Below, one piece after another: positions 1-20,000 of a stretch of DNA of 20,000 nucleotides. The stretch is from Reclinomonas americana ATCC 50394. Taxonomy: Eukaryota. Location of the stretch: assembly GCA_048213135.1 (NCBI GenBank), contig PS015062.1, forward strand, positions 60,651 to 80,650. Reading direction: 5' to 3'. The stretch's first letter is position 1; every line of letters begins with the position of its first letter. The translations under genes were made by a program, and so were the position numbers. The notes below the pieces were generated by a model. The model was not told the origin of the DNA and did not search any database. It saw only the letters and a program-made list of their open reading frames with translations.

Positions 1-12
1 TTGGTCACACAG

Positions 13-1279
<1,267 letters not shown>

Positions 1280-1503
1280 ATAGATGCCGTAGTGAAAACA
1301 CGCACCACGAGATCGCACACGGGTTAACCAATGATACGAAATCGTGTTTCACTCTATGCGAGCACAAGAAAGACACACACACCTAACCCACACACAACAC
1401 ACACACACACACACACGTAAATGCACAACACACACAGATGTATTCGTCGACATGCAAGCCGCGTTTTGATTCTCGCCGTTACCAGCAGGTGCCTAGGAGC
1501 AAA

Positions 1504-3009
1504 TTACCACTCCTCCTCACTGTCAGAGTCGCTGCGAGCACGCGCCTGCGTTGGCGGCGGCGGCGGCAACAGGGGCTGAGCGGGCGCAGCGACCGGCTCT
1601 GCCGCGGGCTCGGCGTGCGCAGCTGGTGCGGGCTCCGGCTCGGCGTGGTGCACCACAGGCTCCGGCTCGGCGTGGACTGGCTCTGGCTCCGCATGCACTG
1701 GCTCTGGCTCGGCGTGGACTGGCTCTGGCTCAGCATGCACTGGCTCTGGCTCCACGTGCACTGGGGCTGGCGGTGGCGGGGCAACGACTGGGGCTGGGGC
1801 TGGGGCTGGGGCCGGTGCAGGCGCTGGAGCTGGGGCTGGGGCGGGAGCAGGTGCTGGGGCCGGAGCAGCGAGCGGCTTGGGGGCCGGCTGTGTGAGCTGC
1901 ATGAGTGACAACAAGCGAGCCACAGCCACCACCACCACCAACAACAACAGTACGACAGACGCAACAGCAGCAGCAGGCGGAGCCGCGGCGGCAGCCGACG
2001 CGCTTGGGCCAGCGCGCGAGCCCGACGCACCAGAACCCGGAGTGATGTAGCTCACGTTGCCGTAGTTGGCACCCATCGACTTGACCACCTTGTCCATGAT
2101 GGCAGCCTCGTCAAAGTCGCCCGGCTCAGCAGCCTGCCACTCGACATTGATGCCCTGTGCACATACACATACCATGAGACCCCGACATGGAATACCGACA
2201 ACCAGCATGTATGCATGCAATCACCTGGAACAGGTTGGGCAAGTCGTTGTTGTAGCCCATGGCCGCACCACGCTTGAGCGGAGACACGCGCTCGCCCACC
2301 CACTTGACCAGCACAAACTTGGCGCGCTTCGACAGCTCATCGCCCGTCGCAATGCGAATCGTCGCAAATTGCACCTGCGCAATGCACAAATATGGTAAAA
2401 ATGTCGGGAATTCACCAACCAAGAGAGATTGCGGCAAAAGGCGTACCTTGGTCACATCCATCTTGGCCTTCACGTGCGACAGCACAGCGTCGGCGCCGAC
2501 AGCGCCCTTGTCTTGCACAATGAGGCGCTCCTTGTCAGCGGGAGAGATCTGCCATGCACACACACACACGCGCACACACGTTTAGCATGAGCGTGCGCGC
2601 ATGGAGCACAAGAGACACAGAGACGCAGAGAGAGAAGAGAGAGCGTGCGCGCGTCAGTTGGTCTGAACTGCACGACGGAACATTTCACAACCCACACACT
2701 AACTCTTACACGCACACACACGCGCGCACAGAGCACACACACACATGCAAGAGTCACAGCGCATGCACACACACAAAGGGCAAGCAAGTCGGGTGCGGGG
2801 GGAGGGAAGAGGAGGAAGAAGGGTGAAGTTTCATGGTGCCATGACCACACAAACCTCGTACAACACATCTGCGCCGCGCGAGGAGACGTGAGTGTATGAG
2901 AAAAGAGCGCGCACACACAGAGAGAGGGAAAAACGCAACAGTTGAGCGTGCCCTCGCGCAGCTGCTCGTACGCAGACGACTCGTTGCCAGACAAGAACTG
3001 AAGCGGCAT
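1504..3009 (-). CDS. Coactosin-like ADF-H actin-binding protein with Pro/Ala/Glu-rich extension and acidic-Trp tail (~305 aa). Exons 3009-2940, 2868-2855, 2548-2447, 2374-2225, 2154-1966, 1896-1504.
   Basis: TGDELSKRAKFVLVKWVGERVSPLKRG and KSMGANYG resemble coactosin motifs (GDxxSKRxKFxLIxWIG; GANY). Exon phases are consistent from ATG 3009 to TAA 1504. The tail has (AP)n, PPPP, (EPEPVHA)n and SDSDSEEEW*. Confidence 0.85.
1631..1763 (-). repeat. Coding minisatellite, ~21-bp unit encoding EPEPVHA, about 5-6 copies
   Basis: On the plus strand, ggcgtggactggctctggctc alternates with (c/a)gcatgcactggctctggctc, giving a 42-bp higher-order unit. Confidence 0.9.
1788..1870 (-). repeat. Coding 6-bp repeat encoding (Ala-Pro)n
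   Basis: (tggggc)n and variants on the plus strand; translation APAPAPAPAPAPAPAPAPAPAPAP. Confidence 0.85.
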
Positions 3010-3177
3010 GTTTGCTGTTGTGTGTGTGCGTGTGCGGTGATCTGCATGCACGTAAGCACACAAGCAGAGAGAGAACACAGTGTGAGCGCTGTGCTCACCC
3101 GAAGCGGTGCCGTATAGTGAGAGAGTGGATTTTGGACGTTCATCGAGTCAATCAACGTCGGAAGAAGCCTCTTATTA
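3010..3177. promoter_or_regulatory. Short divergent intergenic region, putative bidirectional promoter
   Basis: Only 168 nt separate the inferred start codons of the coactosin-like gene (-) and NOB1 (+). No specific motif was recognised. Confidence 0.5.
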
Positions 3178-5371
3178 ATGGCCGCGCCGCGCAAGACGTT
3201 CTCATACGCAGCAGCAGCTGCCAGTGCGCCTGCTCCTGTTGCTGTTGTCGACATTCCCGCTGTTCCTGCGCATGAGGAGCATACAGTCACGACAACAACG
3301 ACAACAACAGCTGCTGCTGCTGTCGTGCCTGACAGTGCATCCTCCGCTGCCTGCGCTTCCACCGAGATCAAGCAGATCTATGTGCTCGATGCAGGTGCGT
3401 GTGTGTGCAAGAAAAGAGGCTATTTTCGCTCGTGCACATGCACATGCACACACGCTTTCACCAGGCGCCATTTTCCGCGGGTTCCGCTCGCTGCCGAGTG
3501 CGCTGCCGTGTGAGTATGTGACCACAGAGGCTGTCATGCGCGAGGTGCGCGATCATCGCAGTCGACAAGCGTTGGGTGAGTCGCTCACGCACTCGTACAC
3601 TCACGAAAATGCTCGCACACTCACTGTGCTGCGCGCAGCGATGATGCCCGAGTCGGTGTCGACTCGTGTGCCGTCGGATGAGGCGGTGCGAGCGGTGATG
3701 GACTTTGCGCGACAGACTGGCGATCTGTACAACCTGTCGATCACTGATGTGGGTCTGATGGCGCTCACGTGGATGCTAGAGAAGGAGGTGAACGGAGGCG
3801 ACTTGTCGCACCTCCGCACGCAGCCGCTGGTGGTTCGTATCGTGTACACTTGCACGCCGGTCTCCGTTCATGCCGTTCATCTTGAGTCGTTGGTGGGCAG
3901 TCTCGTGCGGCACTGGAGCGCGGACTGAAGGTGGCACAAGATGCAGAGACCCGCAGGGAACGCGACAAGCACGAACCGGTCACAGCACCGGCACCAGTTC
4001 ACAAGAAGCAGCCGCCGCCGCCGCCGCAGCAGCAGCAGCATGCGTCTCATCACGCAGGCGCAGCAGTGGGAGACGATGGCTTTGTGACTATGCCCGGTGC
4101 ACCTCCGCCGGCGGTGCGGGCAGCAGTGGCGGCGGCAGAGTTCGCGGCCTTGTCACCCGAAGAGCAGGCGGCTGAGTTGAAACGGCGTGCGAGGCTAGAG
4201 TCACGCAGGCGACAGCGTCAGGCGCGCAAAGCGAGGCTGCGTGCGGCAAAGGCAGCAGCTGCAGCAGGAGGGGAAGGAGGCGCATCTGCGCCTTCTGCTG
4301 ACGCCGATGCTGACGATGACGACGGTGACAGTGGTGAAGAGCGTGTCGAGAGTGCGGAACATGTGGTGGCTGACGGGGAAGAGGAAGAGGAGGAGGAAGA
4401 GGAGGAAGAACAGCAGCAGCAGGTGACTTCAGTCGGTGGATCGTCGTCTGCAGCCGAGCCTGTCGAACCGTCCGGGCCGATCATGCGTGTCACATTCGCT
4501 GAGGAAGAAGACGACGATGACGGCAGTGGTGGTGACGAGCCTGACGACGGCAGTGATTCGGGTGGCGAATGGATCACACCAGAGAATGTGCGCGAGCATC
4601 TGTTGGCCGACGGCGTGGAGGACTCGGAAGAGCCGGTGGCGACAGGGCGTAGCACTGTGGGCTGTGTGACGACCGACTACGCCATGCAGAACGTGCTCAT
4701 GCAGATTGGCCTGTCGGTGATCTCACTGGAAGGCATGCGCATCCGCAAGACTCGCCACTGGATCAAGCGGTGTCACATTTGCCTGACGTTGCGTTGCGAT
4801 CCACTTGCGCCACGTCCGTCCCGTGTGCTCACTGCAGTTGTGCACGCAGATTGGTGACCGACATGAACAAGCAGTTCTGTCCGAGCTGCGGCAATCACTC
4901 GCTGCTGCGCATCTCGGTGACGGTACGACCAAATGGCGTCGTGCAGACCGTCAACTATCGGCGCAAGATCAGCACGCGCGGTACAAGGGTGAGCCGTGGT
5001 TGCTCACACAGTGCGTGTCGCGGTGAGAGGAACTGACTTTCCGTTGTCGCGCGTCGCACAGTATACGATTCCAAAGCCACGCGGCAACAAGAAGGAGAAG
5101 CGCATTATCGAGATTGAGGAGCAGTACCTGAAGGCGGTGCAGCACAGACCACGCAAGGTACCTCCCTCGTCTTTGTTCATCATTACTGTCTGCGCGCTTC
5201 TCACTCTGCCTCTTTCAGTCGCGAGGCGTCAACGTCCTGGACGCTGATTTTAACACGGAGACGCTCTTCAAGCAACACGGCAAGTACAGTGACGTGGTGA
5301 TTGGCGTGGGCAAGCGGAATCCGAACGAGGTCAGGCGCACTGGCCGCAGCAAGAAGAAGAGCAGGATCTAA
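3178..5371 (+). CDS. NOB1: NOB1, 20S pre-rRNA D-site endonuclease (PIN domain + zinc ribbon). Exons 3178-3394, 3465-3575, 3639-3832, 3901-4787, 4850-4988, 5062-5157, 5219-5371.
   Basis: Motifs VLDAGAI, EVRD, FARQTGDLYNLSITDVGLMALT, acidic insert ending EWITPEN, VGCVTTDYAMQNVLMQIGL, zinc ribbon CHIC...FCPSCGN, STRGTRYTIPKP and GKRNPNE. Six frame-consistent GT-AG introns. Confidence 0.95.
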
Positions 5372-5428
5372 GTTGCTTCTTCTAAACAGCGCCATTAAAC
5401 ATTGTGTACCGTGCATCTCAGCTGCGTG

Positions 5429-8400
5429 CTACCTCTTCTTCCTCCTCCTGCTCTTGCCCTCCGCTTCCTGCTCTTCATCCTCCGCGTCCACGTCGCTGTC
5501 GACGTCGTACATGCAGTCGACCAAGGAGACGCGCACGTGTAGCTCCTTCTCGGCCAGGATGTCGAGCAGGTCGCTGATCTCCTGGTCGGTGAAACCCGGC
5601 GCCAGCACCTCCACGATATCCAACCACAGTCGACGCGCATACGGACAGTCGCGCACGCCACGATACAGCACCTTTTTCGCCTTGTCGTACACATGGTCGG
5701 CCTCCTGTGTTCGCGCCGCCCCGCCAGTGAGCACTTGAAACCTTTGTAGTACACAGGCATCGAAGCAAGTGAACAGCACGCAACAATGCGCCCGGCCTTG
5801 TGCAATCGAAGCGACACTGCCAGCTCGAAACGCAAGTATTCACGCCACAACACGACCGAGCGCCGCGAACTACAGCACACAAACACGCACAGCGAGTCAT
5901 TTTCCAAAGGCCCATTTGACCGACAGGGAGGGGGTTGGACGTACTTGCGATTCTCCAGAGTGGACTCGAACACACTGCGAATGCGGTGTTCCGACGTCAC
6001 CTCGAATAGGCGTTCGGCATAGGCGGAGAAGATGGAGATCAGCGGACAGGTTGTCCGCGTCGACACATCGTCGAGTTCGCGGCGCATCAGAGCCTGCATG
6101 CGCGCACGAGCGTGGATCTGAATCAGACGCGCCAAGAACAGCGGGTGGCCGGGGTACCGTCGCAGCGCACGCATTACAGTCGCGCGCTCCATTCGAGGTG
6201 CCAGTGGCCGCCCACTGTTGGCATGCAATTCGAGAAGCCACAAGTACCTGCGCCACACAAACAAAGACAGCGAGCGAGTGTCACCAAAGCCGCCAGGGAT
6301 CACCCAGTATTTCAAACAACGGCACGCAACAGAGTCCACAGCTCCTCTTCCTCCACGTCGCCCAACGACTGCTCCATGGACTCGTCGTCCACGGACACCG
6401 CGAGTGACATGTGCGGAGTGCGGCAGGCTGGCCACTGCACAGAGAGAATCTCGTCGAGCGCACCGGCTGCGGCAATCATGTCCTGCGACTCGACCGCATA
6501 CACAAAGAGTGCACGGCACTTGAGCAGCTCCAGCATGCCCTCTGACAACACGCGGCGGCGTGACGATGTTGTTTTGCGTGAGGCCACCGACTGTACCACA
6601 CGACAAATGTCGCGGGCACGGTCCTCGTAGACCTGTGCAGCGCGGTGAGGAAATGAGGACACGGCTGAGCACAGACATGCACACATTTACGCACCCGACG
6701 AGCACGCAGAAGGCGCGTGCGCGGCACTGGAGCACCAGCGAACGGCTCAAACTCTGCGGTGTCGACGGCACTGACGAGGATATCTGCAGATGAAAGCAAG
6801 TGAGTGCAGAATGCCACATGCACTCAGCATTGCATCACAGCTGGCGCAACGGAGACATCGCTGCAACTCGCCCTGCTGCAACTCCATTCGTGCATAGTCG
6901 ACGTATACGGTCATGGACAAGTTGCGTTCTTCCGGGGGCAGAGACGCCAGATTGCTGAGCATTGTGTCGTATGCCATGCGTGCCTGCAAAACATTGCCGC
7001 ACCAGTCAGCGCGCCGTCCAATTCCACCAACCAACATCAAAACACACCCGGTCTCGATTCTTGTTGGCGTTCTCCAGCTGGGCGTAGTAGTTGAAGAGCA
7101 GGAGATTGGAAGATTGGTCCTTCAGCAGCGCTCGAGTGAACTTGATGGCTTGTGGTATGCTCTGCGGGGAAGGGAACAGGGTCAGCCAGCACCGCCACCA
7201 TTGTTGCCAATCCCGTCAAACACACACACACACACACACACACCGCTGACTTTTCGAAGTCTAGGAACGAGATGACCAGACGAGTATCGGCGGGGTTCGC
7301 ACGAAGAGCATTGGTGAACACATTGCGCACGAATGCGACGTGTTCGTCGTCGAGCTCCATCGGTCGTCGATCCCACTCCCACTTGCCCTCGGCAGTCTCA
7401 AACAATGACTTGAAGAGCGGCGTCAGCGACGTGCGATTCAGCAGCAGGTCGAATCGCGGTGCGTCGTTCACAGACATGCGACCGGTGAGCGCGGGTACAC
7501 CTGCGGCACAGTGTCAGCAACTGCCAGTCGGAGGGGGATAGCAGAGCCAAGTTCGCAACGCACCGATGAACTCAAGCAACAGACACACAATGTCGGCCTT
7601 GAGTTCCGGGTGCGTGATGGGGAAGATAAACTCGCGCAAGTCGTCAAAGAGAACGATGCGGTTCGGATCGGTTTCGGCGATTGCAGCGTCGAGCACCGGC
7701 CGACCGGGAAGCCACTGTGTCTCACTGGCGCGCTTCTCGCGTCTGTAGAAGCGCATCAGCACCTTGCGATCCACCGTCGGCTCACTCCGTTCTGCACACC
7801 ATGCGTAAGAGAGTGCATTTGTGACAATGAGCGCACAGTGACAGACAGCCAACCTTCAACATGTGCGTTCTTCTTCAGCGACGACATGGACGGCATGGGA
7901 GCAGGGGGAGGAGATGGCGGCTTGTCTGCAACGGTTTCCTCGCGCTCCTCACTCTCCGTGTCAGACTCATCGTCTTCGTCTTCTTCGTGCTCCTCTTTGT
8001 CGCCCTCCTCGTCGCTCTCCATCGCAAGGTCGTGTCGCTCCTCCTCCATCTCCAATTCTTGCAATTTGCGCCATCGCTCCCTCTGCGCCTCCTCATCTTC
8101 GGCGTCCTCTCCCGGCACAGGTGACCACCGACCCGGCTGCATTCATCATCACCAAAGGATGAGCGCACTCGCGCAAGGATGGGCAAGCAAATGATTTCAC
8201 CCGCACCAACATGGGGTCGTCGCCGTCGCCACCATCGTCGCCAGCGGCAGCGCGTGCTTGTGCACTTTCGAACTCATCAGCCCACGCGCTCCATCCTCGG
8301 GCCCCCGCCTCACCCATTCGCGGTGCTTCGCTCTCCCAGAAGCGCTCAAACTCGCGCAGCTGGTTGTCCCAGCGCATCACAAAGATCGGGCAGAAGCAAT

Positions 8401-10355
8401 TCAGCTCCACCATGGACTTGCGTGAGCAAAGCAAAGAAGTGATGAGTGAGGCTCGAGGCACAGGAAAGAGCGCAACCCACCGAGTTACACACCTGCAGCA
8501 GCGCAATGGCTCGCTCCGTGTGCCCCGCACTTTCCTCGATGTGACACAACCGGATGAGCATGCGCAGCATCTGCACCTCGATGTCGTACGACGTGAGATC
8601 GCGCAGGGAGGCATCGGTCTCCGGCCGCGGTCGCAGACCACCCTCCAGTCGTCGTTCACGATCTGCAGCCAACCCGCGTGAGTCATGAACCAAGGCAACA
8701 CAACCAAAAATCGTGGAGGTCAGACCTTCAACAGCACGCTTCACCGGCAACAGCGACGCGAAGGCATCGGCAAATGTCTGTCGCACCGACGACATGGTGA
8801 AATCGGCAAAGTTGCTCAACTTGAACGACAAGAACTCTTCCCACAGTCGCGGACTGCCTGGCACAGCCGCCAGAGCCTCCTTCCACCGTCGCTCGGCTTT
8901 TTCGTTCCTGTGCGCCGGCGTGAGGACGACACACATATGCACACACTCACAGATACCAGCGCAACTCGTTCAGCTGTTCGTAGGCACCAATGTACGCGGA
9001 GATGAGCGACACATTGTGCGGATTGGCGTCCAGCGCCCGCTGCAAAATGCTGATCTTCTTCTCGATAACAGATCGGATGTTGCGCCGCGCCGTGGCCGTG
9101 CCCGTGTTGGTCAGCATGGCGGCACGGTCTTGGAATCGAGCAAACTCCAACCAGAGCTGGATGTCATGTGGTCGCTCCCGAGTCCGCTGGTTGAACTCGC
9201 CGGTGCGTCGGAACAAAAACTGCTCCAGTGTCTCCCCAGCAGCAGCCTGCTCGCCAGAGGCGCCACTGCTACGCACTTGAGCGCCACCAAACCCATCACC
9301 CGTCTCCACGTCTAGCGACACAAACAGTGGCACCTCGCCACCAAACTCGGACGACGGTCGAAAGGCGTCACCAGCGCGCGCCATATCCGACCGCGACAAG
9401 TCGAGCTTCTGCACAGTCTTGGCGCGCTCCAACCGATCATAGTCGGTCATAAAGTACCGGCGACCAGACGAGCGCTACAAAAAAAAAGTCAGTCGGAAGG
9501 GACACAATGTACAGCAAAAAAAGACATGCGCATGCCTTGACAGCAGTCAGTTCTCCGGCAGTGATCATCATCTGGATCCGCCGACCGTGCCAGAACCGTC
9601 GCAGAGCCTCGAGCGGGTCCTCACCACCTGCGCACGACAAAGCGATCAGCAAGCGCCTCGTGGACTGCCAAGCGGGAACGACACAATTCACCGAGTCGCC
9701 TGTAACGCGGAACACTGGCACGATCCAAGCCGCCATACACGACATTGTTGGGATCGCCTCGCGTGTTGATCGAAAAGGCATCAAACGACGGCCTGCCACA
9801 GACGCACATGAGCACGCACCACACAAGAATGTGGCATGCAGAGAGACCACGCAACACTGCAGACACCGAGGTGGCACTCCGTCCCTCACGTTTCGCAATG
9901 CGTCGCTCAATGTCAATGATCTTCTCCACCTCGGTCTTCTTCTGCTTGGACGACTTTTTCTTGCGCTTCTCCTTGTCCTTGCTCTTGCTGCGTTTTCGAG
10001 AGCGCTTCCGATCCGGACTGCAACTCAACAATCAACAACAAACACACACTCTCTCTGTGCGTGTGTGTGTTGAGGAATGCACGTCACCTGTCAGCGTCAG
10101 AATCACTCGACGATGGCAGCGAGGACACCGACGAGGCATCAGAGTCGCCCGGAGACTGCAGACACATGCACACACGCATGCATGAGTGTCATCAGTCGCA
10201 AAGCGACTTGCCTCCACAACTTACCTCTTTCCTCCGTCGCCTCTTTTCACTGCGTTTCTTCTTGTGAGTGCGTGGTGCATCCTCGTCTGCTTTGGTCAGT
10301 GGAGGAGGAGGCGCGGTGAAGCTGCTCAATCGAAGCCAATCGAGACTCGCTGCGC
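5429..10355 (-). CDS. NRDE2: NRDE2-family nuclear exosome/MTR4-associated HAT-repeat protein, ~19 visible exons, 5'-partial (first exon upstream of the acceptor at 10356-10357)
   Basis: Spliced motifs SLDWLRLSSF, K/R-rich tract, RGDPNNVVYGGLDRASVPRYRR, FNQRTRERPHDIQLWLEFARFQD, EKKISILQRAL, AGHTERAIALLQSMVELN, FERFWESEAPRMGEAGARGW, DPNRIVLFDDL, VLWREYLRFE and KKVLYRGVRDCPYARRLWLD...EKELHVR. A few junctions (near 5742-5815, 8908-8956, 9475-9541) are ambiguous. Confidence 0.92.
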
Positions 10356-10391
10356 CTGTGACAACTCAGTGAGCAAGTGGCGTTTCTCTGC

Positions 10392-10560
<169 letters not shown>

Positions 10561-10768
10561 NNNNNNNNNNNNNNNNNNNNNNNNNNNNNNNNNNNNNNNN
10601 NNNNNNNNNNNNNNNNNNNNNNNNNNNNNNNNNNNNNNNNNNNNNNNNNNNNNNNNNNNNNNNNNNNNNNNNNNNNNNNNNNNNNNNNNNNNNNNNNNNN
10701 NNNNNNNNNNNNNNNNNNNNNNNNNNNNNNNNNNNNNNNNNNNNNNNNNNNNNNNNNNNNNNNNNNNN
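10561..10768. other. Assembly gap (208 N)
   Basis: Run of N. Confidence 0.99.
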
Positions 10769-10812
10769 GTGTTGTATAGCTTATTGCTGCTCACGAGCGT
10801 TCCACTGCGTAG

Positions 10813-13800
10813 CTTTGGCCACTGGATTCACACCGCCGTCTGTGAGAAGCAATGACTCCGCAGCTGTGGTCACCATCGCTGGCTACGAGCTGGAGGGCGG
10901 CTACAGCGTGAGCAGTGTGCGATTCGAGCCGGGAGCTACGTGCACGCCGACGACATCGGGTGCTGCAGCAGGCACAGTGACGACAACCAACCTGGCCATT
11001 CTCGGTGGCGATCGCACACAGTTGTTTGTCACGGTGGGAGGCGCCGGGCTCAAGACCGACATGTATAGTATTTGCATCGAGCGCACTGCGCTCCCAGGGA
11101 CATTTGTCAAAGTCGGTACCTCGCAGCTTCTTGTCGGTTTGTTGCATTCCTCCCCCCCGGCAACCTCATCTCGTACTCGCAACTAACTCTCCCTGTCGAA
11201 TGCAGCTTCTGCCGCTACGTTCTCCCCGAGAACAATGGTCACTGGCGCCCTACCAACATTCACCATTACCGGCATTGGCCTGGACGCTGCATTGTCGGTG
11301 CGGCAAGTGCGTTTCGAACCGAGCACCACGTGTACAGCCACAGTCGCAGGGGCCACGGCGGGCACTGTGCTTGCCTCAGGCACCTTCTCTAATAACATGG
11401 CACGCACCGAACTGTACGTGGGACTCGGTGCGGTCACGCTGGTGCCGCATGTCTACAGCGTGTGCATCGATTTTGTCGCCAATTTCGCTGCTGGCGAGTT
11501 TTCGCGAGTCGGAACACTTGATCTGCTTGTCCGTTGCGTTACGAATGTGTGCGAGATGCGTGTGTGTTTGTTTGTGTTTTTTGGTGCTGAGTTTTTCCGC
11601 CTGTTTCGCACGCGCACATAGCATCGGTGGCGGACTTCAACCCGCAAATTCTCATTGCCGGTGACCCATCACTTCGTGTCACGCTGGTCGGTGTGGCGCT
11701 CGACAGTCCAGTCAGTGTGCGGACAGTGCGGTTCGAAGTCGGCCAGAATTGCACCCGCACCGTGGCCGATGCGCTGCCAGGAACAATCTCGTTTTCTGGA
11801 CCAGCTGCCAGTGCTGCCGACTACAGCACCATGCATATTGCTGTGGGTGGCAGCGGCCTCACGGCCGGCGTTTTTGCCGTCTGTGTGGATTTCACAGGCA
11901 ATGCAGCCACAGGTGACTTTATTCGCGCCGGCACCGTGGACATTCAAGTCGGTGAGCAGCATTTCCCATTCCTACTTTCCACTTGTGTACTATTTTCTGA
12001 ACCCGCCCATGCCAACACAGGAACGTTGACGTCACTTACGCCAAACACGGTACTGGTCGGTGACTCCGCCACTGTCTACACCATCACTGGCACGCTGTTG
12101 GACACTGGAACTACAGTAATGTCGGCGCGCTTCGAACCCTCCCTCTCGTGCTCGCCAGAGACAGCAGGCGCCACTGCTGGAACTGTGGAAGCTGCCGGCA
12201 TGTTCTTCTCTGCCATGAACAGCACAGTGTTGTATGTGTCGGTCGGTGGTGGCGGCTTGCCGGCCTCGACCTACAGCGTGTGTCTCGATTTTGCGTCGGC
12301 GTCTGGCGCGGGAAATTACATTAGAGTCAGCACCGGCTATGTCTTTGTTGGTGTGTGTGTGCCACTTCGTTTTCTCATTTTTTCCCTCGGCGCGTCTTAC
12401 TCACTGGCATGTATGTGTTGGTGTTCTTTTCACTAGCCTCGGTGGCATCGTTCTCGCCGCTCTCAGTGCTGGCCGGGGACCCGTCGGCCGAGCTGAGCAT
12501 CACGGGACTCGGACTGACCGTCTCCACTTCTGTGCGCAACGTGCGCTTCGAGCCCGGCAACTCGTGCACCATTGGTCCTGCGGTGGCCATGGGCACCGTC
12601 CTCGCGCAGGGCCCCTTTGCCTCGAACACCAACTACACCACCCTTCGTGTGGGAATCGGTGGCACCGGCCTGCCAGTCACCGAGTACAGCGTGTGCGTAG
12701 AGTTCACGGCCCGCAATAGCACCTTGCAGTACTATGTCAAGGTCGGCAGCGCGCGTCTGCTAGTCGGTAACGTCATTGTGTTTGCTGCGCGATATGATTG
12801 TGTGCTGTCTGTGCTCACCGTATGTTGCATGCAGCTCGAGTGGACGACTTCTCGCCAGTAACCGTAATGCCAGGCGACGCATTGGCCACTGTGGTGATTT
12901 CGGGTGTCGCTCTGGACTGGCCTTTCAGTGTTGCTGCTGTGCGATTCGAGCCTGCGTTGTCCTGCACCGCGACTGCGGCGGGTGCTGCCACCGGTACGGT
13001 GGTCGCGTCGACCCTGAGTAACATCTCGGCACGAACGAATGTTACGGCAGTTGTGGGTCTCACTGGCTTACCCGCCGCCGAATACGTGGTGTGCGTACAA
13101 CTGGCCGCCGGGACCGGCCTCTACGTGCGCGCTGGCACCAGCCGCCTTCTCGTCCGTTGCGTTCACAACGCGGAAGTTTGCACTCGACGTCCATACTTCT
13201 TATTTACTTTTATTCTGTTACGTGCACAGCATCGGCAACATCATTCACGCCGCCAGCTATCAAGCGTGGCGACGGCACCGAAACCGTGACTCTCTCCGGC
13301 GTTGCGCTTGACGCCACGCTCAGCGTACTCGCCGTGCGATTCGAGCCGGCCTCTGTATGCACTCTGTCAGCAGCAGCTACTCCAGTCGCTGGCTCGGTTC
13401 TCACGAGCGCTTTGTCGAGCAACGCCCCGCGTCAGTTGCTAGTGGCCACTGTTGGCGGTTCCGGTCTCACGGTTGGAGCGCAGTACAGCATCTGCGTGCA
13501 ATACACTGCATTACCGAGCAGTTTCTTGCGAGTCGGCAATGCGAGCCTGCTCGTTGGTGAGGCGCACACGCCTCTTTCAGTTTTTTCCTGTGGAGGTGCT
13601 TGACTCATGCCATGCCTGTGTTTTGCAGCTCTGGCCAACTCCATATCGCCGACGATCGGACCGACTGGCGATCCATCGTTTGTGGTGACCGTCTCTGGCG
13701 TCGCGCTGCACGTTCCCAACAGCGTTGCAGCTGTGCGCTTCGAACCCGGCACAGTGTGCGCTGGTGCTGGCATGCCTCCGGCAGGCTCAGTTACCGCTTC

Positions 13801-16800
13801 CACTATCCTCTCCGACATGACGCAGACATCGGTCGCGTGTACGATTGGTGGGCCGGGCTTAACACCTGGTGCCTATGCCGTTTGCATTGCATACACTGTT
13901 ACCCCGAGCACATACGTGCTGGTGACCAGCACAACACTTGACATACGTGCGTCTGCCCCCGTTGATGAACCGTCTCTCCCCTTGCCGACTCGCGAGCACT
14001 CACATCAAATCGCTGTGCAGCACGGGTCGACACATTTGCCCCGTTGACCATGCCGTCTAGTGATGCCACTGTGCCGATCACCATTAACGGTATTCTGCTG
14101 CTGGCGTCCTTTGACGTTCGAGTGGAGCAGCAGACGACGTGCACGCCAACGGGAGCCGGTGCGGTCGGGTTCGTTCACAGTCTGGCGGCTAATGCGCCGC
14201 GTACGTCGATTATTTTCGACCTCGGTGTCGAGACGTTCCCAGCCGGCGCATACAGCGTCTGTGTTCGCTTTGCTCCGTATCTGACCTACCTCAAGGTCGG
14301 CAGCGCGCAGCTGGCTGTCGGTTCGTTGACCTCCTGGTGTCGTGTTTGAAAACGTCTCTCTTTGGTTCTCGTGCCGTTCTCATGTGCGTTGGATTATGTC
14401 GCAGCCGGTGCGCAATCATTCTCCCCTCGCTTGGTGCGACCGTTGGATGCGACCTTCAGAATCACCATCACTGGACAATCGTTGTCCGCCGCGAACGGAG
14501 TGCGCATTCAGTCGGGCACGCTGTGCTCGGCCGGCGGCACTGTTGGTCAGACGGTGACCATTGATCAGATCGCAGGCGATGGATCGACGCTGAGTTTCCC
14601 CGTTGGCAGCGGGGGCCTGGCTGTCGGCACCTACAGTGTGTGCCTTCGTCTGGCCTCGGGCTTCGTGTACGGCAAGGTGTCACAGCAGAACATCTTTGTT
14701 CGTTGCGTAAGGATGGTGGTGGAGGCAAATGTCTCCGCGCGATCATGCTAACGGTCGTTCATCGCAGCGTCGGCCACTGCATTCTCTCCGCAATCCGTTC
14801 AACTCGGTCGTGCCGCCGCGAGTGTCACGGTGACTGGAACAGGGCTCGACCAACAGAATACGGTGTACTTTGAGCTGGCAGCTTCCTGCACGGCGAATGG
14901 AGGCGGCAATATGGCCATCACGCAGAGTGTGAACAGCGGGCGCACGCAGCTGACCGTCAATGTGGGCGGCACGGGCCTTGTTGCCGGCCGCTACATTGTG
15001 TGTGTGCGTTTCTCCACGGACTTTGTGTCGCAACTGGTGCCCNNNNNNNNNNNNNNNNNNNNNNNNNNNNNNNNNNNNNNNNNNNNNNNNNNNNNNNNNN
15101 NNNNNNNNNNNNNNNNNNNNNNNNNNNNNNNNNNNNNNNNNNNNNNNNNNNNNNNNNNNNNNNNNNNNNNNNNNNNNNNNNNNNNNNNNNNNNNNNNNNN
15201 NNNNNNNNNNNNNNNNNNNNNNNNNNNNNNNNNNNNNNNNNNNNNNNNNNNNNNNNNNNNNNNNNNNNNNNNNNNNNNNNNNNNNNNNNNNNNNNNNNNN
15301 NNNNNNNNNNNNNNNNNNNNNNNNNNNNNNNNNNNNNNNNNNNNNNNNNNNNNNNNNNNNNNNNNNNNNNNNNNNNNNNNNNNNNNNNNNNNNNNNNNNN
15401 NNNNNNNNNNNNNNNNNNNNNNNNNNNNNNNNNNNNNNNNNNNNNNNNNNNNNNNNNNNNNNNNNNNNNNNNNNNNNNNNNNNNNNNNNNNNNNNNNNNN
15501 NNNNNNNNNNNNNNNNNNNNNNNNNNNNNNNNNNNNNNNNNNNNNNNNNNNNNNNNNNNNNNNNNNNNNNNNNNNNNNNNNNNNNNNNNNNNNNNNNNNN
15601 NNNNNNNNNNNNNNNNNNNNNNNNNNNNNNNNNNNNNNNNNNNNNNNNNNNNNNNNNNNNNNNNNNNNNNNNNNNNNNNNNNNNNNNNNNNNNNNNNNNN
15701 NNNNNNNNNNNNNNNNNNNNNNNNNNNNNNNNNNAACTCGGAACTGTGTGCACTGCCTCTGGAGCCGGTACCCTGTTCACGACCTCGCAAGTCATGGGTC
15801 CCGACACCACACTGATCGCGGATGCTCGAGACACTGGCGGTCTAGTTCCTGGCTCCTACTCTGTGTGTGCTCGGCTGGGAACCACCTTTGAGTTTGTTCG
15901 AGTCGGGTCGGACTCGCTCCTCGTCGGTGGGTGATGTTGTCTTACACGCACACACATGTGCGTGTGCGCACTGGCTTTTGATTTCACATCTGTTCTCCAT
16001 GTCTCCCCTCTTTTTTTGCTTCTTGTGCAGCCTCTGTTGGTGCCTTCTCGCCCATCACGCTGGTGGTTGGCGCCGCCAGCGAAGCCGTGGCAATCACGGG
16101 CGTCGCTCTACACCCAACGATCAGTGTCCGCCGAGTTCGCTTCGAACCTGCCGCAGCGTGTACGACCTCTGAATCCATGGCCACGGCGGGGACAGTGATT
16201 GCTACCGGGCCGCAGGTGTCCAACGCCACTCTCTCCGAACTCACAGTTACTGTGGGCGGAACGGGTCTCCCACCTGCCAAGTACTCGGTGTGTGTAGACT
16301 TGGTGGCCAGTTCAGCCAGCGGCAACTACACTGCGTCTGCAGGCACACTGTACGAACGTGAGTATCCCACCCCACCAATGCTCATCGTCCGTCTCCGCTC
16401 CTGTCTCACTCTCTCTCCCCCCCCCCCCTCCCCAGCCGGCGTTACTGCTTTTTCACCGTCCAGTGTGCTCGCCGGCGATGGAACGGCAGTGATCACAGTG
16501 ACCGGCGTAGCCCTCGATCCGCTCATCTCGGTGCGCGCTGTTCGACTGGAACCGCTCGTGACCTCGTGTACGATGAATGCAACTGCACCTACAAATGGCA
16601 CGGTGACCGCCGTGGGCCCGTTCGCTAGCAACGCCAACAATACGGCTCTCACTGTCGTCCTCGGAGGAAGCGGCGCGCCGCCTGGCGAGTACCTGGTGTG
16701 CGTCGACTTTGTGGCCAATCCAGTCGATGGCGGATTCGTCTCTGCCGGCTCCGTGAAACTCCTCGTTGGTGCGTCTGCATGAGTTGTGCGGTGTTTGGAC

Positions 16801-19800
16801 ACTGTTGTTGCTCATCAATTTCGGTGGTGTGTATTGCAGGCTCCGTGGCAACGTTCTCACCGGGAACACTACCAAAGAATAGTGCCGCGGCCACCGTCAG
16901 TATCACGGGTATTGCGCTGCAGTCATCAACATCGGTGCGCAGTGTGCGTTTGGAGCCCGGTTTCACCTGCACTGCCTCCACCAATGGCGCTGCGGCGGGC
17001 ACTGTCGTTGCATCGGGCTCAGCGCTGAGCAATGCCGACCGTACTGTCCTCGCAGTCACTGTTGGTGGCTCTGGTCTGCCTGCTGCGCGGTACTCGGTGT
17101 GCCTCGACTGGTCCGCGAACCCTGCCGCCGGCAACTTTGTGCGTGTCGGCGCCGCAGTGGTCCTTGTCGGTGCGTGCGATACTCGATCGATGATGCAGTA
17201 GGTGTTTGAGTCACTCTTGCTGACCGCTGCGAGTATTCAGCCTCGGCCGATGACTTCTCACCGGTCGCACTGCCACGCTTACTCACCAACACCACCGTCA
17301 CTCTCAGTGGCGTCGCACTCCACCCTACCGACTCAGTGCGCAGTGTGCGGTTCGAACCCGGTGCCAGCTGCACGGCAGCACCAGCCTCTCCCGCTGTCGG
17401 CTTTGTCGACGCCATCGGTGCGCGAGTTTCACTCGACGCCTCTTTGGCCGACATATCTGTGGTGGTCGGAGGTACAGGTCTTCCCGCGGGTCAATACTCT
17501 GTGTGTGTCGACTATGTATCGAGTCCGGTGCTCGGTTCGTTTGTACGCGTCGGTAACTCCACTGCTCTCGTCGGTACGTCACTCGTTGGTGGTGCACTTG
17601 TGTGTTTTCGTGTCTGACATTCCGCCTGCTGCTGCTGCAGTATCGACCTCGTCCTTTGGTCCCCTACGTGTGTTGCCGGACTCGGGGGCGGCTACCGTGA
17701 CCATCACTGGTGTCGCACTTGACCCACTGCTGAGTGTCCGAGCTGTCCGTTTCGAGCCTGGTGATGGTTGCGCCGCAGTCACCGCCGACGCTGCAATGGG
17801 NNNNNNNNNNNNNNNNNNNNNNNNNNNNNNNNNNNNNNNNNNNNNNNNNNNNNNNNNNNNNNNNNNNNNNNNNNNNNNNNNNNNNNNNNNNNNNNNNNNN
17901 NNNNNNNNNNNNNNNNNNNNNNNNNNNNNNNNNNNNNNNNNNNNNNNNNNNNNNNNNNNNNNNNNNNNNNNNNNNNNNNNNNNNNNNNNNNNNNNNNNNN
18001 NNNNNNNNNNNNNNNNNNNNNNNNNNNNNNNNNNNNNNNNNNNNNNNNNNNNNNNNNNNNNNNNNNNNNNNNNNNNNNNNNNNNNNNNNNNNNNNNNNNN
18101 NNNNNNNNNNAACTGTGCTTGCCACTGGACCCATGACGGACGCGAGTTATCCGGATCGAACACAACTGCAAGTGGCTGTTGGTGGTGCGGGACTGCCACC
18201 TGGCGAATACAGTGTGTGCCTCGATGCTGTCGCCAGTGCGCCGGCAGGCGGTTTTGAACGAGTCGGATCGTCTCGACTGCTTGTCGGTGCGCTACTGCCT
18301 TGTTTGGCCGCTGCTGTGTGTCATCTCCGCATCCATGCTAATGCTATGCTCTTGTCTTTCGTGTTCTGTCTGCAGCCTCTGCGCAATCGTTCTCTCCCGC
18401 GAGCGTACTGCGTGATGCATTGAGTGCCACGGTAACCATTACAGGAGTGGCGTTGTCGAGTTCCACCAGTGTCCGATCTGTCCGCTTCGAACCCGGGAAC
18501 GCATGTTCAGCGGCCATTTCTGCTGCCGTGAACGACACCGTCACTGCCGCGAGCTTCGTGTCCAATGTCAACCAAACTGAATTGGAGGTCACGGTCGGCG
18601 GTGCTGGGCTTCCGCCAGCAGAGTACTCGGTGTGCATCGACTACAGTGCATCGGCTGCCGCGGGCGACTTCAAGAAAGTTGGATCGTCGCGTCTTTTCGT
18701 TGGTACGTGAGGCGTACTTGCCACGGCGGGAGGGAGTGCTACTGTAGTGTTGTGCTCACATTCTCGATCGTCTCGGCGTCTTCACTGCACAGCCGGCGTC
18801 GGTGCCTTCGAGCCAGCATCGCTGCGAGTGTCCGACTCGACTGCTGTACTAACAGTTGTGGGTGTGGCGCTGCTACCCAACGTCACCGTTGCCAGTGTTC
18901 GTTTCGAGCCCGCGGCAGTATGCTCTCCTGGTCCCCTCAACCAGACCACCAATGGCACCGTCGAGGCCACTGGCGGTCTGTCAAGCGCCGCTGGCAACAC
19001 ACAGCTGGTTGTCATTGTTGGCGGCACGGGCCTGGTGTCCGCCACGTACTCTGTGTGCGTGCAGATCATCGGGCGTCCCGCCGACAGTGACTTTGTTCGC
19101 GTCGCATCAACATTTGTTCTTGTCGGTACGCGTAGTGTGGCGTGTGTCTCTTGCGTGGCATCGTTGTAACGCTGCTCATCCACTTTGGCACAGCGTCGGC
19201 AAGTGACTACTCTCCTACGACGCTTCGCGCGGATCGCAGTTCGGAAAGCATTGAGATTCGTGGTATTGCACTGCAGCAGAACACTAGCGTGCGCGCTGTG
19301 AGATTTGAGCCCGCATCCACCTGTTCGGCGACGGAGAACGGAGCCGCAGCTGGGACTGTGGCCGCAAACAGCACATTCGCCAACGCTGCTGACTTTAGTC
19401 GTCTCACCGTCGGTGTCGGTGGTAACGGTCTACCTCCCGGACGCTACGTTGTGTGCATCGACTTTGTAGCCAACACTCCGGCTGGGACGGCGTACGTTCG
19501 TGTCGGGAGCTCGGTGCTGCTCGTCGGTTTGTGATCCGTGCGCGCTGTGTGCGGAGTTGCAAACGTGTCTTTGTGCTAACGTTGCCTGCTCGCAGGCTCG
19601 GCAACTGCCTACACGCCGCCGACAGCAGTGCCGAATTTCCCCGGTGCCGCCATTCAGATATCAGGCATTGCACTCGACGCTACACGCAGTGTGCGCGCTG
19701 TGCGTTTCGAGCCCAGTGTGTCGTGTACGGCATCTCTTGGTGGCGCCACTCCGGGCACAGTTGATGCAGCCGTGGTCGGAAACCTGGGCTCGGACCAGAC

Positions 19801-19925
19801 ACAGCTCAATGTGACTGTTGGTGGAGCTGGCCTCGGTCCAGCCGAGTATGCGGTGTGTCTCGATTTTGTAGCGCACGCTGGCGATGCCGAATTTGTCAAA
19901 GTAGGATCCACACGACTTCTCGTCG
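10813..19925 (+). CDS. Internal fragment of a giant putative cell-surface/secreted protein with >=21 tandem Ig/IPT-TIG-like domains, one per exon. Exons 10813-11136, 11206-11532, 11622-11951, 12021-12350, 12437-12766, 12835-13155, 13230-13556, 13629-13946, 14021-14320, 14405-14701, 14768-gap, gap-15926, 16031-16357, 16436-16768, 16840-17169, 17241-17573, 17641-(gap)-18286, 18376-18702, 18793-19125, 19194-19526, 19596-19925.
   Basis: Every complete exon is stop-free, 297-333 nt, a multiple of 3 and flanked by phase-1 GT-AG introns. Consensus (A/P)SxxxFSPxxxxxxDxxxxVTITGVALxxxxSVRxVRFEPxxxCxxxxxGAxAGTVxA...RTxLxVxVGGxGLPxxxYSVCVDF...FVRVGSxxLLV, with many N-x-S/T sequons. Neither start nor stop lies in the window. 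The fold call is inferred. Confidence 0.88.
15043..15734. other. Assembly gap (692 N) inside the repeat-domain gene
   Basis: Run of N; both flanks are partial repeat exons. Confidence 0.99.
17801..18110. other. Assembly gap (310 N) inside the repeat-domain gene
   Basis: Run of N; the flanks are the N-half and C-half of a repeat unit. Confidence 0.99.
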
Positions 19926-20000
19926 GTACGGCGTCTGTTTTCGCGCAGGTTTTTTGCGGTCATTTTGTGTCTCAGTATTCTCATACGACGATCTGCGGCG

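What the first reader, a model, noticed from the sequence alone, without database searches (positions are those of the whole stretch)
10813..19925. Giant array of symmetric phase 1-1 exons, each encoding exactly one diverged two-Cys Ig/TIG-like domain
Seen: at least 21 units with a ~400-bp period. Exons are 297-333 nt and all 3n, introns are 66-104 nt and always at the domain boundary, and no unit is broken. Two Cys recur per unit (VRFEPxxxC and YSVCVDF), with many N-glycosylation sequons. Units share motifs but are clearly diverged and the introns are not visibly alignable, so the duplications look old and maintained. Established: FSP...VTITG..L resembles the start of IPT/TIG domains; tandem TIG arrays occur in fibrocystin/PKHD1 and Dictyostelium Tgr adhesion/allorecognition proteins; class 1-1 modules typify animal exon shuffling. 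Inference: this is an uncharacterised repeat family forming a >2,200-aa extracellular rod (adhesin, coat or prey-capture protein). Any exon can be skipped, swapped or duplicated in frame, so the locus could generate combinatorial (Dscam-like) or allelic diversity in an apparently non-animal eukaryote.
Basis: partly seen in the sequence, partly recalled or inferred. Interest (0 to 1): 0.75.

Follow-up and report, generated by a model that had tools for sequence, protein, structure and literature searches.

The report
One-domain-per-exon giant protist surface protein
A single-celled jakobid flagellate carries a giant surface-protein gene in which each exon encodes one immunoglobulin-like domain in the same reading phase, a gene design usually considered typical of animals, but nothing indicates it is used to generate variable receptors.

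Summary
The array is real. It has 18 complete exons of 297-333 nt, all 3n, and 19 of 19 gap-free introns (66-104 nt, GT-AG) are phase 1 at the domain boundary. Assembly gaps cut three more units and hide both gene ends. The array continues past the window to at least 34 units, about 3,600 aa. Each unit is an IPT/TIG-fold beta-sandwich (pLDDT 88.6; best matches Met and plexin IPT, Z 9.3-10) with a shifted Cys pair; none of 18 reaches Pfam's TIG cut-off. The genome is a jakobid's. The module forms a large family there: 371 hits on 35 contigs, and 169 of 170 testable junctions are phase 1. Paralogs end in a membrane anchor or join FN3, NHL, EGF-like, REJ and GPS domains. Near-identical copies show purifying selection (pN/pS 0.2), so Dscam- or Tgr-like diversification is unsupported; splicing was not tested with RNA. 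Best reading: a constitutive extracellular stalk built by exon-plus-intron duplication, i.e. animal-style class 1-1 modules in Discoba. This scan noted the family before on another piece of this genome (e1-7451963).

The parts
10561..10768 (.). Assembly gap after a (CA)n(GA)n(GAC)n microsatellite. It must hold or hide the gene's 5' end (signal-peptide exon not seen) and the 5' end of the opposite-strand NRDE2-like gene.
   Evidence: no second copy of either flank was found in G000
10813..14701 (+). Units 1-10: ten complete phase 1-1 exons (324, 327, 330, 330, 330, 321, 327, 318, 300, 297 nt), one two-Cys IPT/TIG-fold domain each (unit 8 has a third Cys)
14768..15042 (+). Unit 11, 3' end cut by an N gap
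15043..15734 (.). N gap inside the array; may hide one or more units
15735..15926 (+). Unit 12, 5' part lost in the gap, phase 1 donor intact
16031..17573 (+). Units 13-16: four complete phase 1-1 exons (327, 333, 330, 333 nt). Unit 15 (16840-17169) was the one modelled.
17641..18286 (+). One unit split by the N gap 17801-18110. The two visible parts (160 + 176 nt) cover the first and second halves of the domain and sum to 3n.
18376..19925 (+). Last four complete exons in the window (327, 333, 333, 330 nt). A 98%-identical second copy of 18111-20000 lies inverted at G000:C54:83212-85103, most likely the other haplotype.
19926..20000 (+). Intron after the last window unit. The array continues beyond the window with 13 more distinct units up to G000:C54:94822, ending mid-exon at another gap.

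Best explanation
The region is the middle of one giant gene for an extracellular glycoprotein, most likely a single-pass membrane protein. Its at least 34 tandem IPT/TIG-fold domains stack head to tail into a stiff stalk (very roughly 130 nm at about 4 nm a domain, a recalled figure). Each domain probably carries one disulfide between a Cys just after strand C and a Cys in strand F. The stalk would hold a binding or adhesive tip away from the cell or tether the cell to a surface or its lorica. The gene grew by repeated tandem duplication of a cassette made of one exon plus one short intron. The founding module was flanked by phase 1 introns, so every copy stayed in frame, and the same class 1-1 module was reused in many paralogous mosaic receptors. 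The exons are most likely spliced constitutively and are under purifying selection. Shown: exon structure from the DNA, fold model, family size, paralog architectures, pN/pS, a recent cassette duplication in a paralog. Inferred: splicing itself, the disulfide, this gene's own signal peptide and anchor, rod length and function.
For: Structure. Fold: AlphaFold pLDDT 88.6, pTM 0.83. The top five of 48,161 chains are a Bacteroides protein of unknown function (Z 10.0) and IPT-containing chains of Met and plexins A1, A4 and C1 (Z 9.3-9.9, rmsd 2.1-2.4 over 80-87 residues). Atlas neighbours include a eukaryotic cluster with PF01833 on 41% of members (recognition scores low). In a natural intronless tandem pair the last strand of domain 1 (97-105) runs straight into the first strand of domain 2 (107-112), pTM 0.74. 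Extracellular: sequons 23 vs 12.1 expected; 242 of 300 near-full family domains have exactly two Cys, mostly 35-49 residues apart. Anchor: the closest paralogous array (C3/C6, up to 56% identity) ends in a hydrophobic helix, basic residues and a Pro/Ser-rich tail; C74 and C878 also show TM-like segments (3 distinct loci among 34 arrays scanned, many with little downstream sequence); C7196/C5521 has a signal-peptide-like start. Mechanism: three C7196 cassettes are 94-96% identical in the exon and 87-99% in the following intron. Family-wide phase: 169 of 170 testable junctions, against 4 of 13 phase 1 introns in three housekeeping genes. In true fibrocystin-like genes of the same genome several canonical TIG domains share one open frame. 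Selection: pN/pS 0.21 at this locus and 0.20 over 87 pairs.
Against: Neither end of this gene is assembled, so its own signal peptide and anchor are not seen; it could be secreted or end in REJ-GPS. Splice sites are read from DNA only. The automated phase call favours G|GT donors (candidate pool 332/81/36 for phases 1/2/0), counts both haplotypes and is not independent, since duplicates inherit their phase. The one-exon-one-domain rule is not absolute in the family: 10 junctions have no intron and at least 4 domains are split by an internal intron. The disulfide could not be measured because no coordinates were returned. Foldseek gave no match at E <= 0.001. No functional data exist.
Confidence: 0.62

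Rival explanations
1. The protein is secreted, not membrane-bound, and serves as a structural fibre of the lorica, stalk or extracellular coat.
For: The genome's EF-1alpha matches a protein labelled Reclinomonas americana, which feeds inside a lorica attached to the substrate (PMC11145212, passages). A very long glycosylated rod would suit a fibre, and this gene's 3' end is unseen.
Against: The closest paralogous array ends in a TM helix and cytoplasmic tail, and other members are receptors with REJ-GPS. No lorica proteome was seen.
Confidence: 0.15
2. It is the ectodomain of a polycystin-1/adhesion-GPCR-like mechanosensory receptor (TIG rod, REJ, GPS, several TM helices).
For: Paralog C51/C58 carries FN3 and NHL repeats, an EGF-like block, seven of these domains, REJ and GPS; C101 also has REJ. 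A 4,305-aa kinetoplastid protein with weakly matching domains is among the hits (P0084, E 6.8e-6).
Against: In the unit tree the C54 units cluster mostly with C6 units, whose gene has a single TM and no REJ or GPS hit. The tree is weakly resolved and was the quick version.
Confidence: 0.1
3. Dscam-like combinatorial splicing: units are skipped or used in a mutually exclusive way to give many isoforms or tunable lengths.
For: All 190 donor-acceptor combinations keep the frame without a stop.
Against: Frame symmetry follows from cassette duplication alone. Introns (66-104 nt) are as short as in housekeeping genes (61-80 nt). No intronic element pairs with many exons among 16 inverted repeats. 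Unit order is the same in both copies over the stretches compared. A review states that animals skip exons more than other eukaryotes and that 3n enrichment among skipped exons is not seen outside them (PMC8001218, section 9).
Confidence: 0.07
4. A Tgr-like self/non-self recognition locus under diversifying selection between alleles.
For: Same domain fold as Tgr proteins (PMC12745789, passages); the two copies differ at 14 nonsynonymous sites.
Against: pN/pS is 0.21 here and 0.03-0.49 in all 13 contig pairs of the family. DNA identity of the two copies (97-98%) is at or above that of other allelic pairs (95.7-97.6%). Only two haplotypes and about 2 kb of coding sequence of this gene were compared; the unseen tip could still vary.
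Confidence: 0.06

Closest known systems
IPT/TIG domains (Pfam PF01833; Met, plexins, fibrocystin/PKHD1L1, Rel/EBF)
   Same: E-set beta-sandwich fold, the P-x(9-10)-(V/I)T(I/L)xG start, a Cys after strand C (aligned with a canonical TIG of this genome, weak), and tandem extracellular arrays.
   Different: Units are about 109 aa against Pfam's 84 positions. The second Cys lies about 44 residues later in strand F, not about 11 residues later as in the canonical TIGs of this genome. 0 of 18 window units pass Pfam's cut-off (best 16.6 vs 20.9 bits). Each domain has its own exon.
Fibrocystin-L-like proteins (TIG array plus G8)
   Same: Very long TIG arrays in a surface protein.
   Different: This genome has separate, canonical fibrocystin-like genes (TIG and G8) with several domains per open frame. 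No G8 was seen near this array, whose ends are missing.
Dictyostelium TgrB1/TgrC1
   Same: Protist transmembrane proteins with TIG/IPT ectodomains (PMC12745789, passages).
   Different: Far more domains here, and purifying rather than diversifying variation between copies.
Animal class 1-1 mosaic proteins (Ig, FN3, EGF modules)
   Same: Domain-exon correspondence, phase 1 flanks, extracellular modules reused in several architectures; in C51 both the TIG block and the EGF-like block are bounded by phase 1 introns.
   Different: The host is a jakobid (Discoba). A review holds such proteins practically restricted to animals (PMC8001218, sections 8 and 9). Most of the signal here is tandem duplication of one module, and the FN3/NHL parts of the paralog sit in long intron-poor exons.
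Non-animal exon-per-repeat arrays: Tetrahymena 90-bp LRR exons; Ectocarpus ROCO-LRR and TPR exons
   Same: Symmetric exons, one repeat each, expanded by duplication outside animals.
   Different: Tetrahymena's are phase 2 LRR units of exactly 90 bp (PMC6564038, passages). Ectocarpus exons are 72-126 nt LRR/TPR units with positive selection and silent or inverted copies (PMC3341825, passages). Here they are whole folded Ig-like domains, phase 1, under purifying selection.

Membership tests
IPT/TIG (PF01833) | Score above Pfam gathering cut-off (20.9 bits) | tested here: not met
   0 of 18 window units pass; one scores 16.6, E 0.0078. One paralogous unit on C89 passes at 28 bits; 4 of 16 members of a tandem alignment match at E <= 0.1.
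IPT/TIG (PF01833) | E-set immunoglobulin-like beta-sandwich fold | tested here: met
   All-beta model, pLDDT 88.6; Met and plexin IPT chains at Z 9.3-9.9, rmsd 2.2-2.4.
IPT/TIG (PF01833) | Closely spaced Cys pair as in canonical extracellular TIGs (pattern read from this genome's fibrocystin-like genes) | tested here: not met
   Canonical copies have Cys about 11 apart; this family 35-49 apart in 232 of 242 two-Cys domains.
Fibrocystin/PKHD1L1 | G8 domain following the TIG array | tested here: inconclusive
   Gene ends lie in gaps. G8 was found only in a different gene; the nearest paralog's C-terminal ORFs gave no G8.
Tgr-type allorecognition proteins | Hyperpolymorphic alleles under diversifying selection | tested here: not met
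   pN/pS 0.21 and 0.20 over 87 pairs; two haplotypes only.
Tgr-type allorecognition proteins | Single-pass membrane anchor | tested here: inconclusive
   Present in the closest paralogous array; not assembled for this gene.
Dscam-type variable receptor (features recalled) | Mutually exclusive use of exon variants in mRNA | not testable with these tools
   No RNA run could be examined.
Dscam-type variable receptor (features recalled) | Intronic docking/selector complementarity shared by many exons | tested here: not met
   16 scattered inverted repeats of 16-25 nt, none recurring per unit; introns no more alike than shuffles.
Class 1-1 shuffled module (criteria in PMC8001218 section 8) | Exon boundaries match domain boundaries | tested here: met
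   18 of 18 complete window exons. Family exceptions: 10 intronless junctions and 4 split domains.
Class 1-1 shuffled module (criteria in PMC8001218 section 8) | Non-random use of phase 1 on both sides | tested here: met
   19 of 19 in the window; 169 of 170 in the family; control 4 of 13. Predicted from DNA; counts are not independent.
Class 1-1 shuffled module (criteria in PMC8001218 section 8) | Module joined to unrelated domains through phase 1 introns | tested here: met
   One paralog examined (C51): phase 1 introns between the EGF-like block and first TIG and after the last TIG; FN3, NHL, REJ and GPS confirmed by Pfam, the EGF-like block by eye only.

The most novel reading that the evidence does not exclude
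Jakobids independently evolved an animal-style toolkit of class 1-1 extracellular modules (this TIG variant, EGF-like blocks, perhaps cadherin-like repeats) and assembled dozens of giant mosaic receptors from them by intronic recombination. This would break the claim that class 1-1 exon shuffling is practically restricted to animals and give an independent replicate for testing why phase 1 dominates.
Probability: 0.45. Interest if true: 0.75.

Novelty: new variant of a known kind. Interest (0 to 1): 0.52.

Why it matters
A review argues that multidomain proteins built from symmetric class 1-1 modules are practically restricted to animals and calls the phase 1 preference 'mysterious' (PMC8001218). 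Here a lineage on the far side of the eukaryote tree shows hundreds of phase 1-1 exons, each encoding a folded extracellular Ig-like domain, used in several receptor architectures. If RNA confirms the splice sites, jakobids become an independent test of the proposed explanations (glycine-rich linkers, signal-peptide boundary) and weaken the link between such gene design and multicellularity. The family also gives concrete candidates for the attachment, lorica or prey-contact apparatus of a deep-branching flagellate. The interest is tempered: tandem exon arrays are known in ciliates and brown algae, the fold is a known one, and the immune-like diversification idea found no support.

Tried and rejected
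RNA: no RNA holder was listed for window 10769-20000, so splicing and expression were not examined; this blank is no evidence either way. Closing the gene ends: DNA searches of G000 with window 10769-15042, 8400-10399, 15735-17800 and C54:91487-94822 found no overlapping second copy. The last 40 kb of C2 and the other neighbouring-numbered contigs fetched held no link; two of them carried other family units. The idea that the C54 array and the TM-ended C6/C3 array are one gene of about 55-60 domains split by scaffolding stays open: C54 ends and C6 starts mid-exon at gaps, and a 20-N gap in C6 hides over 2 kb present in C3, but no overlap proves it. DNA of relatives: the metagenome scan with one unit gave 596 pattern matches and no confirmed relative, so intron phase in other species rests on protein read-through only. 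A word-index search for longer homologs returned 1 protein of 8,000 scored. The PDB sequence search gave 4 chance hits at E 0.19-0.65; Foldseek gave none at E <= 0.001. Pfam cadherin PF00028 gave no match at E <= 1e-5 in G000, so the earlier notes on cadherin-like arrays were not confirmed here. The unit tree was only the quick version, with 9 of 120 branches well supported and second-haplotype copies left out; it shows C54 and C6 units intermingled and nothing finer. Considered and rejected: a non-coding or artefactual repeat (open frames, sequon excess, purifying selection); a fibrocystin ortholog; a true inverted gene duplication for the 98% copy (less likely than the second haplotype, since allelic contig pairs are common in this assembly). 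Literature searches for jakobid surface-protein exon arrays and for exon shuffling with intron phase in protists (0 papers) found no description of this family; the library lacks most subscription papers. No supplements were read. No complex prediction was run.
Full report
Observation. The window (G000:C54:60651-80650) holds on the + strand 18 complete exons of 297-333 nt, all multiples of three, each encoding one repeat of 98-110 aa. All 19 introns free of N are GT..AG, 66-104 nt and phase 1 at the repeat junction. Repeats are 39% identical on average (25-54%), and intron cores align hardly better than shuffles. 17 of 18 have exactly two Cys. Sequons number 23 against 12.1 in shuffles, though 5 of 18 units lack one. 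All 190 donor-acceptor combinations keep the frame without a stop. Three N gaps matter: 10561-10768 hides the 5' end, 15043-15734 cuts units 11 and 12, and 17801-18110 splits one unit whose two visible parts sum to 336 nt. The 21 visible units give about 2,217 codons.

Extent. Downstream the scaffold carries 13 further distinct units up to C54:94822, where the array ends mid-exon at a gap: at least 34 units and about 3,600 aa. Two stretches occur twice, inverted, at 97-98% identity. Allelic contig pairs at 95.7-97.6% are common in this assembly, so I read these as the second haplotype scaffolded in the wrong orientation (inference). Searches with four flanking or internal stretches found no contig bridging either end.

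Fold. AlphaFold on the 18-unit alignment gave an all-beta domain, pLDDT 88.6. Against 48,161 chains the top rows were a Bacteroides protein of unknown function (Z 10.0) and Met and plexin A1, A4 and C1 chains (Z 9.3-9.9, rmsd 2.2-2.4 over 80-87 residues), followed by Rel and EBF IPT domains. Foldseek had no hit at E <= 0.001. Pfam TIG scores 16.6 bits on 1 of 18 units, under the 20.9 cut-off; one paralogous unit passes at 28 bits. The first Cys aligns weakly with that of a canonical TIG. The second lies 35-49 residues later in 232 of 242 two-Cys domains, against about 11 in the canonical TIGs of this genome. A disulfide between them is inferred, not measured. A natural intronless tandem pair from a paralog folds head to tail with no linker (pTM 0.74), consistent with a rod.

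Organism. The genome's one strong EF-1alpha hit lacks the opisthokont insertion (the insertion is recalled knowledge). Its last exon is 100% identical to P0106, labelled Reclinomonas americana by UniRef, with other jakobids at 82-87%; NCBI places that species in Jakobida, Discoba. That the window belongs to the same eukaryote is inferred from the single EF-1alpha and the like intron style. This flagellate feeds inside a lorica attached to the substrate (PMC11145212, passages).

Family. One unit finds 150 scored matches among 311 candidates in G000. In the stretches I fetched, an iterated profile finds 371 domains on 35 contigs, both haplotypes counted, a lower bound. In an automated test on 27 contigs, 169 of 170 junctions were best explained by a phase 1 intron, one had no solution, and 10 more junctions have no intron. 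The scoring favours G|GT and copies inherit their phase, so this shows constancy, not 170 independent events. At least 4 domains are split by an internal intron. Controls: 4 of 13 introns in three housekeeping genes are phase 1, and fibrocystin-like genes of this genome carry several canonical TIGs per open frame. The closest array (C3/C6, up to 56%) ends in a TM helix and a Pro/Ser-rich tail; its units intermingle with C54 units in a weak, quick tree. C51/C58 is a mosaic of FN3, NHL, an EGF-like block, seven units, REJ and GPS (EGF-like by eye), with phase 1 introns on both outer sides of the TIG block and of the EGF-like block. C7196 has a signal-peptide-like start and three recent cassettes whose following introns are 87-99% identical: exon plus intron duplicate together.

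Relatives elsewhere. The profile finds 101 cluster representatives. None of 103 proteins tested is 90% identical to the fetched G000 arrays; the best is 65%. Of 30 looked up, 25 are unnamed Logan or ENA records; one is a 4,305-aa kinetoplastid protein. Several low-ranked hits are unrelated bacterial Ig-like repeats. At 82 domain ends not followed directly by another domain, the next residue is G or R in 51, as read-through of a phase 1 donor would give, while 27 junctions are direct. This hints that the boundary is shared with other organisms, but their DNA was not seen. Atlas neighbours are eukaryotic hypothetical clusters, one with TIG on 41% of members; recognition scores were low.

Diversity test. 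The two copies at this locus differ by 25 synonymous, 14 nonsynonymous and 15 intronic changes, pN/pS 0.21. Over 87 near-identical domain pairs in 13 contig pairs the ratio is 0.20 (range 0.03-0.49). Unit order is the same where both copies exist. No recurring intronic inverted repeat was found, and the introns are of ordinary length. Allelic diversification is thus not supported on the part compared, and Dscam-like splicing has only frame compatibility in its favour; RNA could not be examined.

How it most likely works. A constitutively spliced, glycosylated, disulfide-stabilised stalk, probably membrane-anchored, that projects a binding tip or tethers the cell (0.62). Rivals: secreted lorica or coat fibre (0.15), polycystin/adhesion-GPCR-like receptor (0.10), variable splicing (0.07), allorecognition locus (0.06). 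Gene structure, fold model, family and selection are shown; splicing, anchor, disulfide and function are inferred.

Comparison and novelty. It works like TIG or Ig extender arrays in fibrocystin, plexins and Tgr proteins (PMC12745789, passages) but fails the Pfam cut-off and the Cys pattern, so I call it a TIG-fold variant. [quoted passage not shown] Non-animal exon-per-repeat arrays are in print, though: Tetrahymena phase 2 LRR exons (PMC6564038, passages) and Ectocarpus LRR/TPR exons (PMC3341825, passages). The new point is whole extracellular Ig-like domains as class 1-1 modules in Discoba, reused in mosaic receptors; most of it is tandem duplication, and junctions to other domains were examined in one paralog only. 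My searches found no description of the family. This scan noted it before on another piece of this genome (e1-7451963). Verdict: new variant of a known kind, interest 0.52.

Noticed in passing
window 1080-14701; donors after units 2, 6, 10: Unusual donor GTTGCG in 3 of 20 visible array donors, each after an exon-terminal C, and in two neighbouring genes. Read-through 'RC' in proteins from other samples suggests the same donor there.
   Followed up: partly
G000:C54:95191-103124, minus strand (L003, L004): A convergent gene with a Pro-rich start, a TM-like segment, Gly/Thr/Ser-rich beta-repeat-like exons and a near-perfect 22-aa tandem repeat; four ORFs scanned gave no Pfam hit.
   Followed up: partly
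G000:C51:199000-219400, minus strand (L074, L090, L091): Giant mosaic receptor: many NHL and FN3 repeats in exons of up to about 2,000 codons, EGF-like block, seven TIG-variant domains, REJ, GPS and membrane segments, resembling polycystin-1/adhesion GPCRs.
   Followed up: partly
G000:C74:292000-299000, C101:68000-77000, C22, C757 (L108-L115): Several fibrocystin-L-like genes (canonical TIG arrays; G8 confirmed in L108) in this genome.
   Followed up: partly
G000:C89:281365-306812: A 25-kb array with 43 detected units of the same family on one strand.
   Followed up: partly
G000:C7196:6491-7899, C7197, C13499: Recent near-identical exon-plus-intron cassettes (period 422-423 bp) at which the assembly breaks; a candidate for copy-number variation.
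   Followed up: partly
window 1-10400: Ordinary neighbours: thioredoxin reductase (+, to 1279; Pfam), an ADF-H-like gene with a Pro/Ala repeat tail (-, about 1500-3010; label by eye), NOB1-like (+, 3178-5372; label by eye), NRDE-2 (-, about 5400-10370; Pfam).
   Followed up: partly
window 10400-10560: Compound microsatellite (CA)12(AG)42(GAC)18 running into the assembly gap.
   Followed up: no
P0002 (database protein): An intronless tandem of these domains is labelled as a Formivibrio MAG protein on a 1,188-base contig; possibly eukaryotic sequence binned with a bacterium.
   Followed up: no
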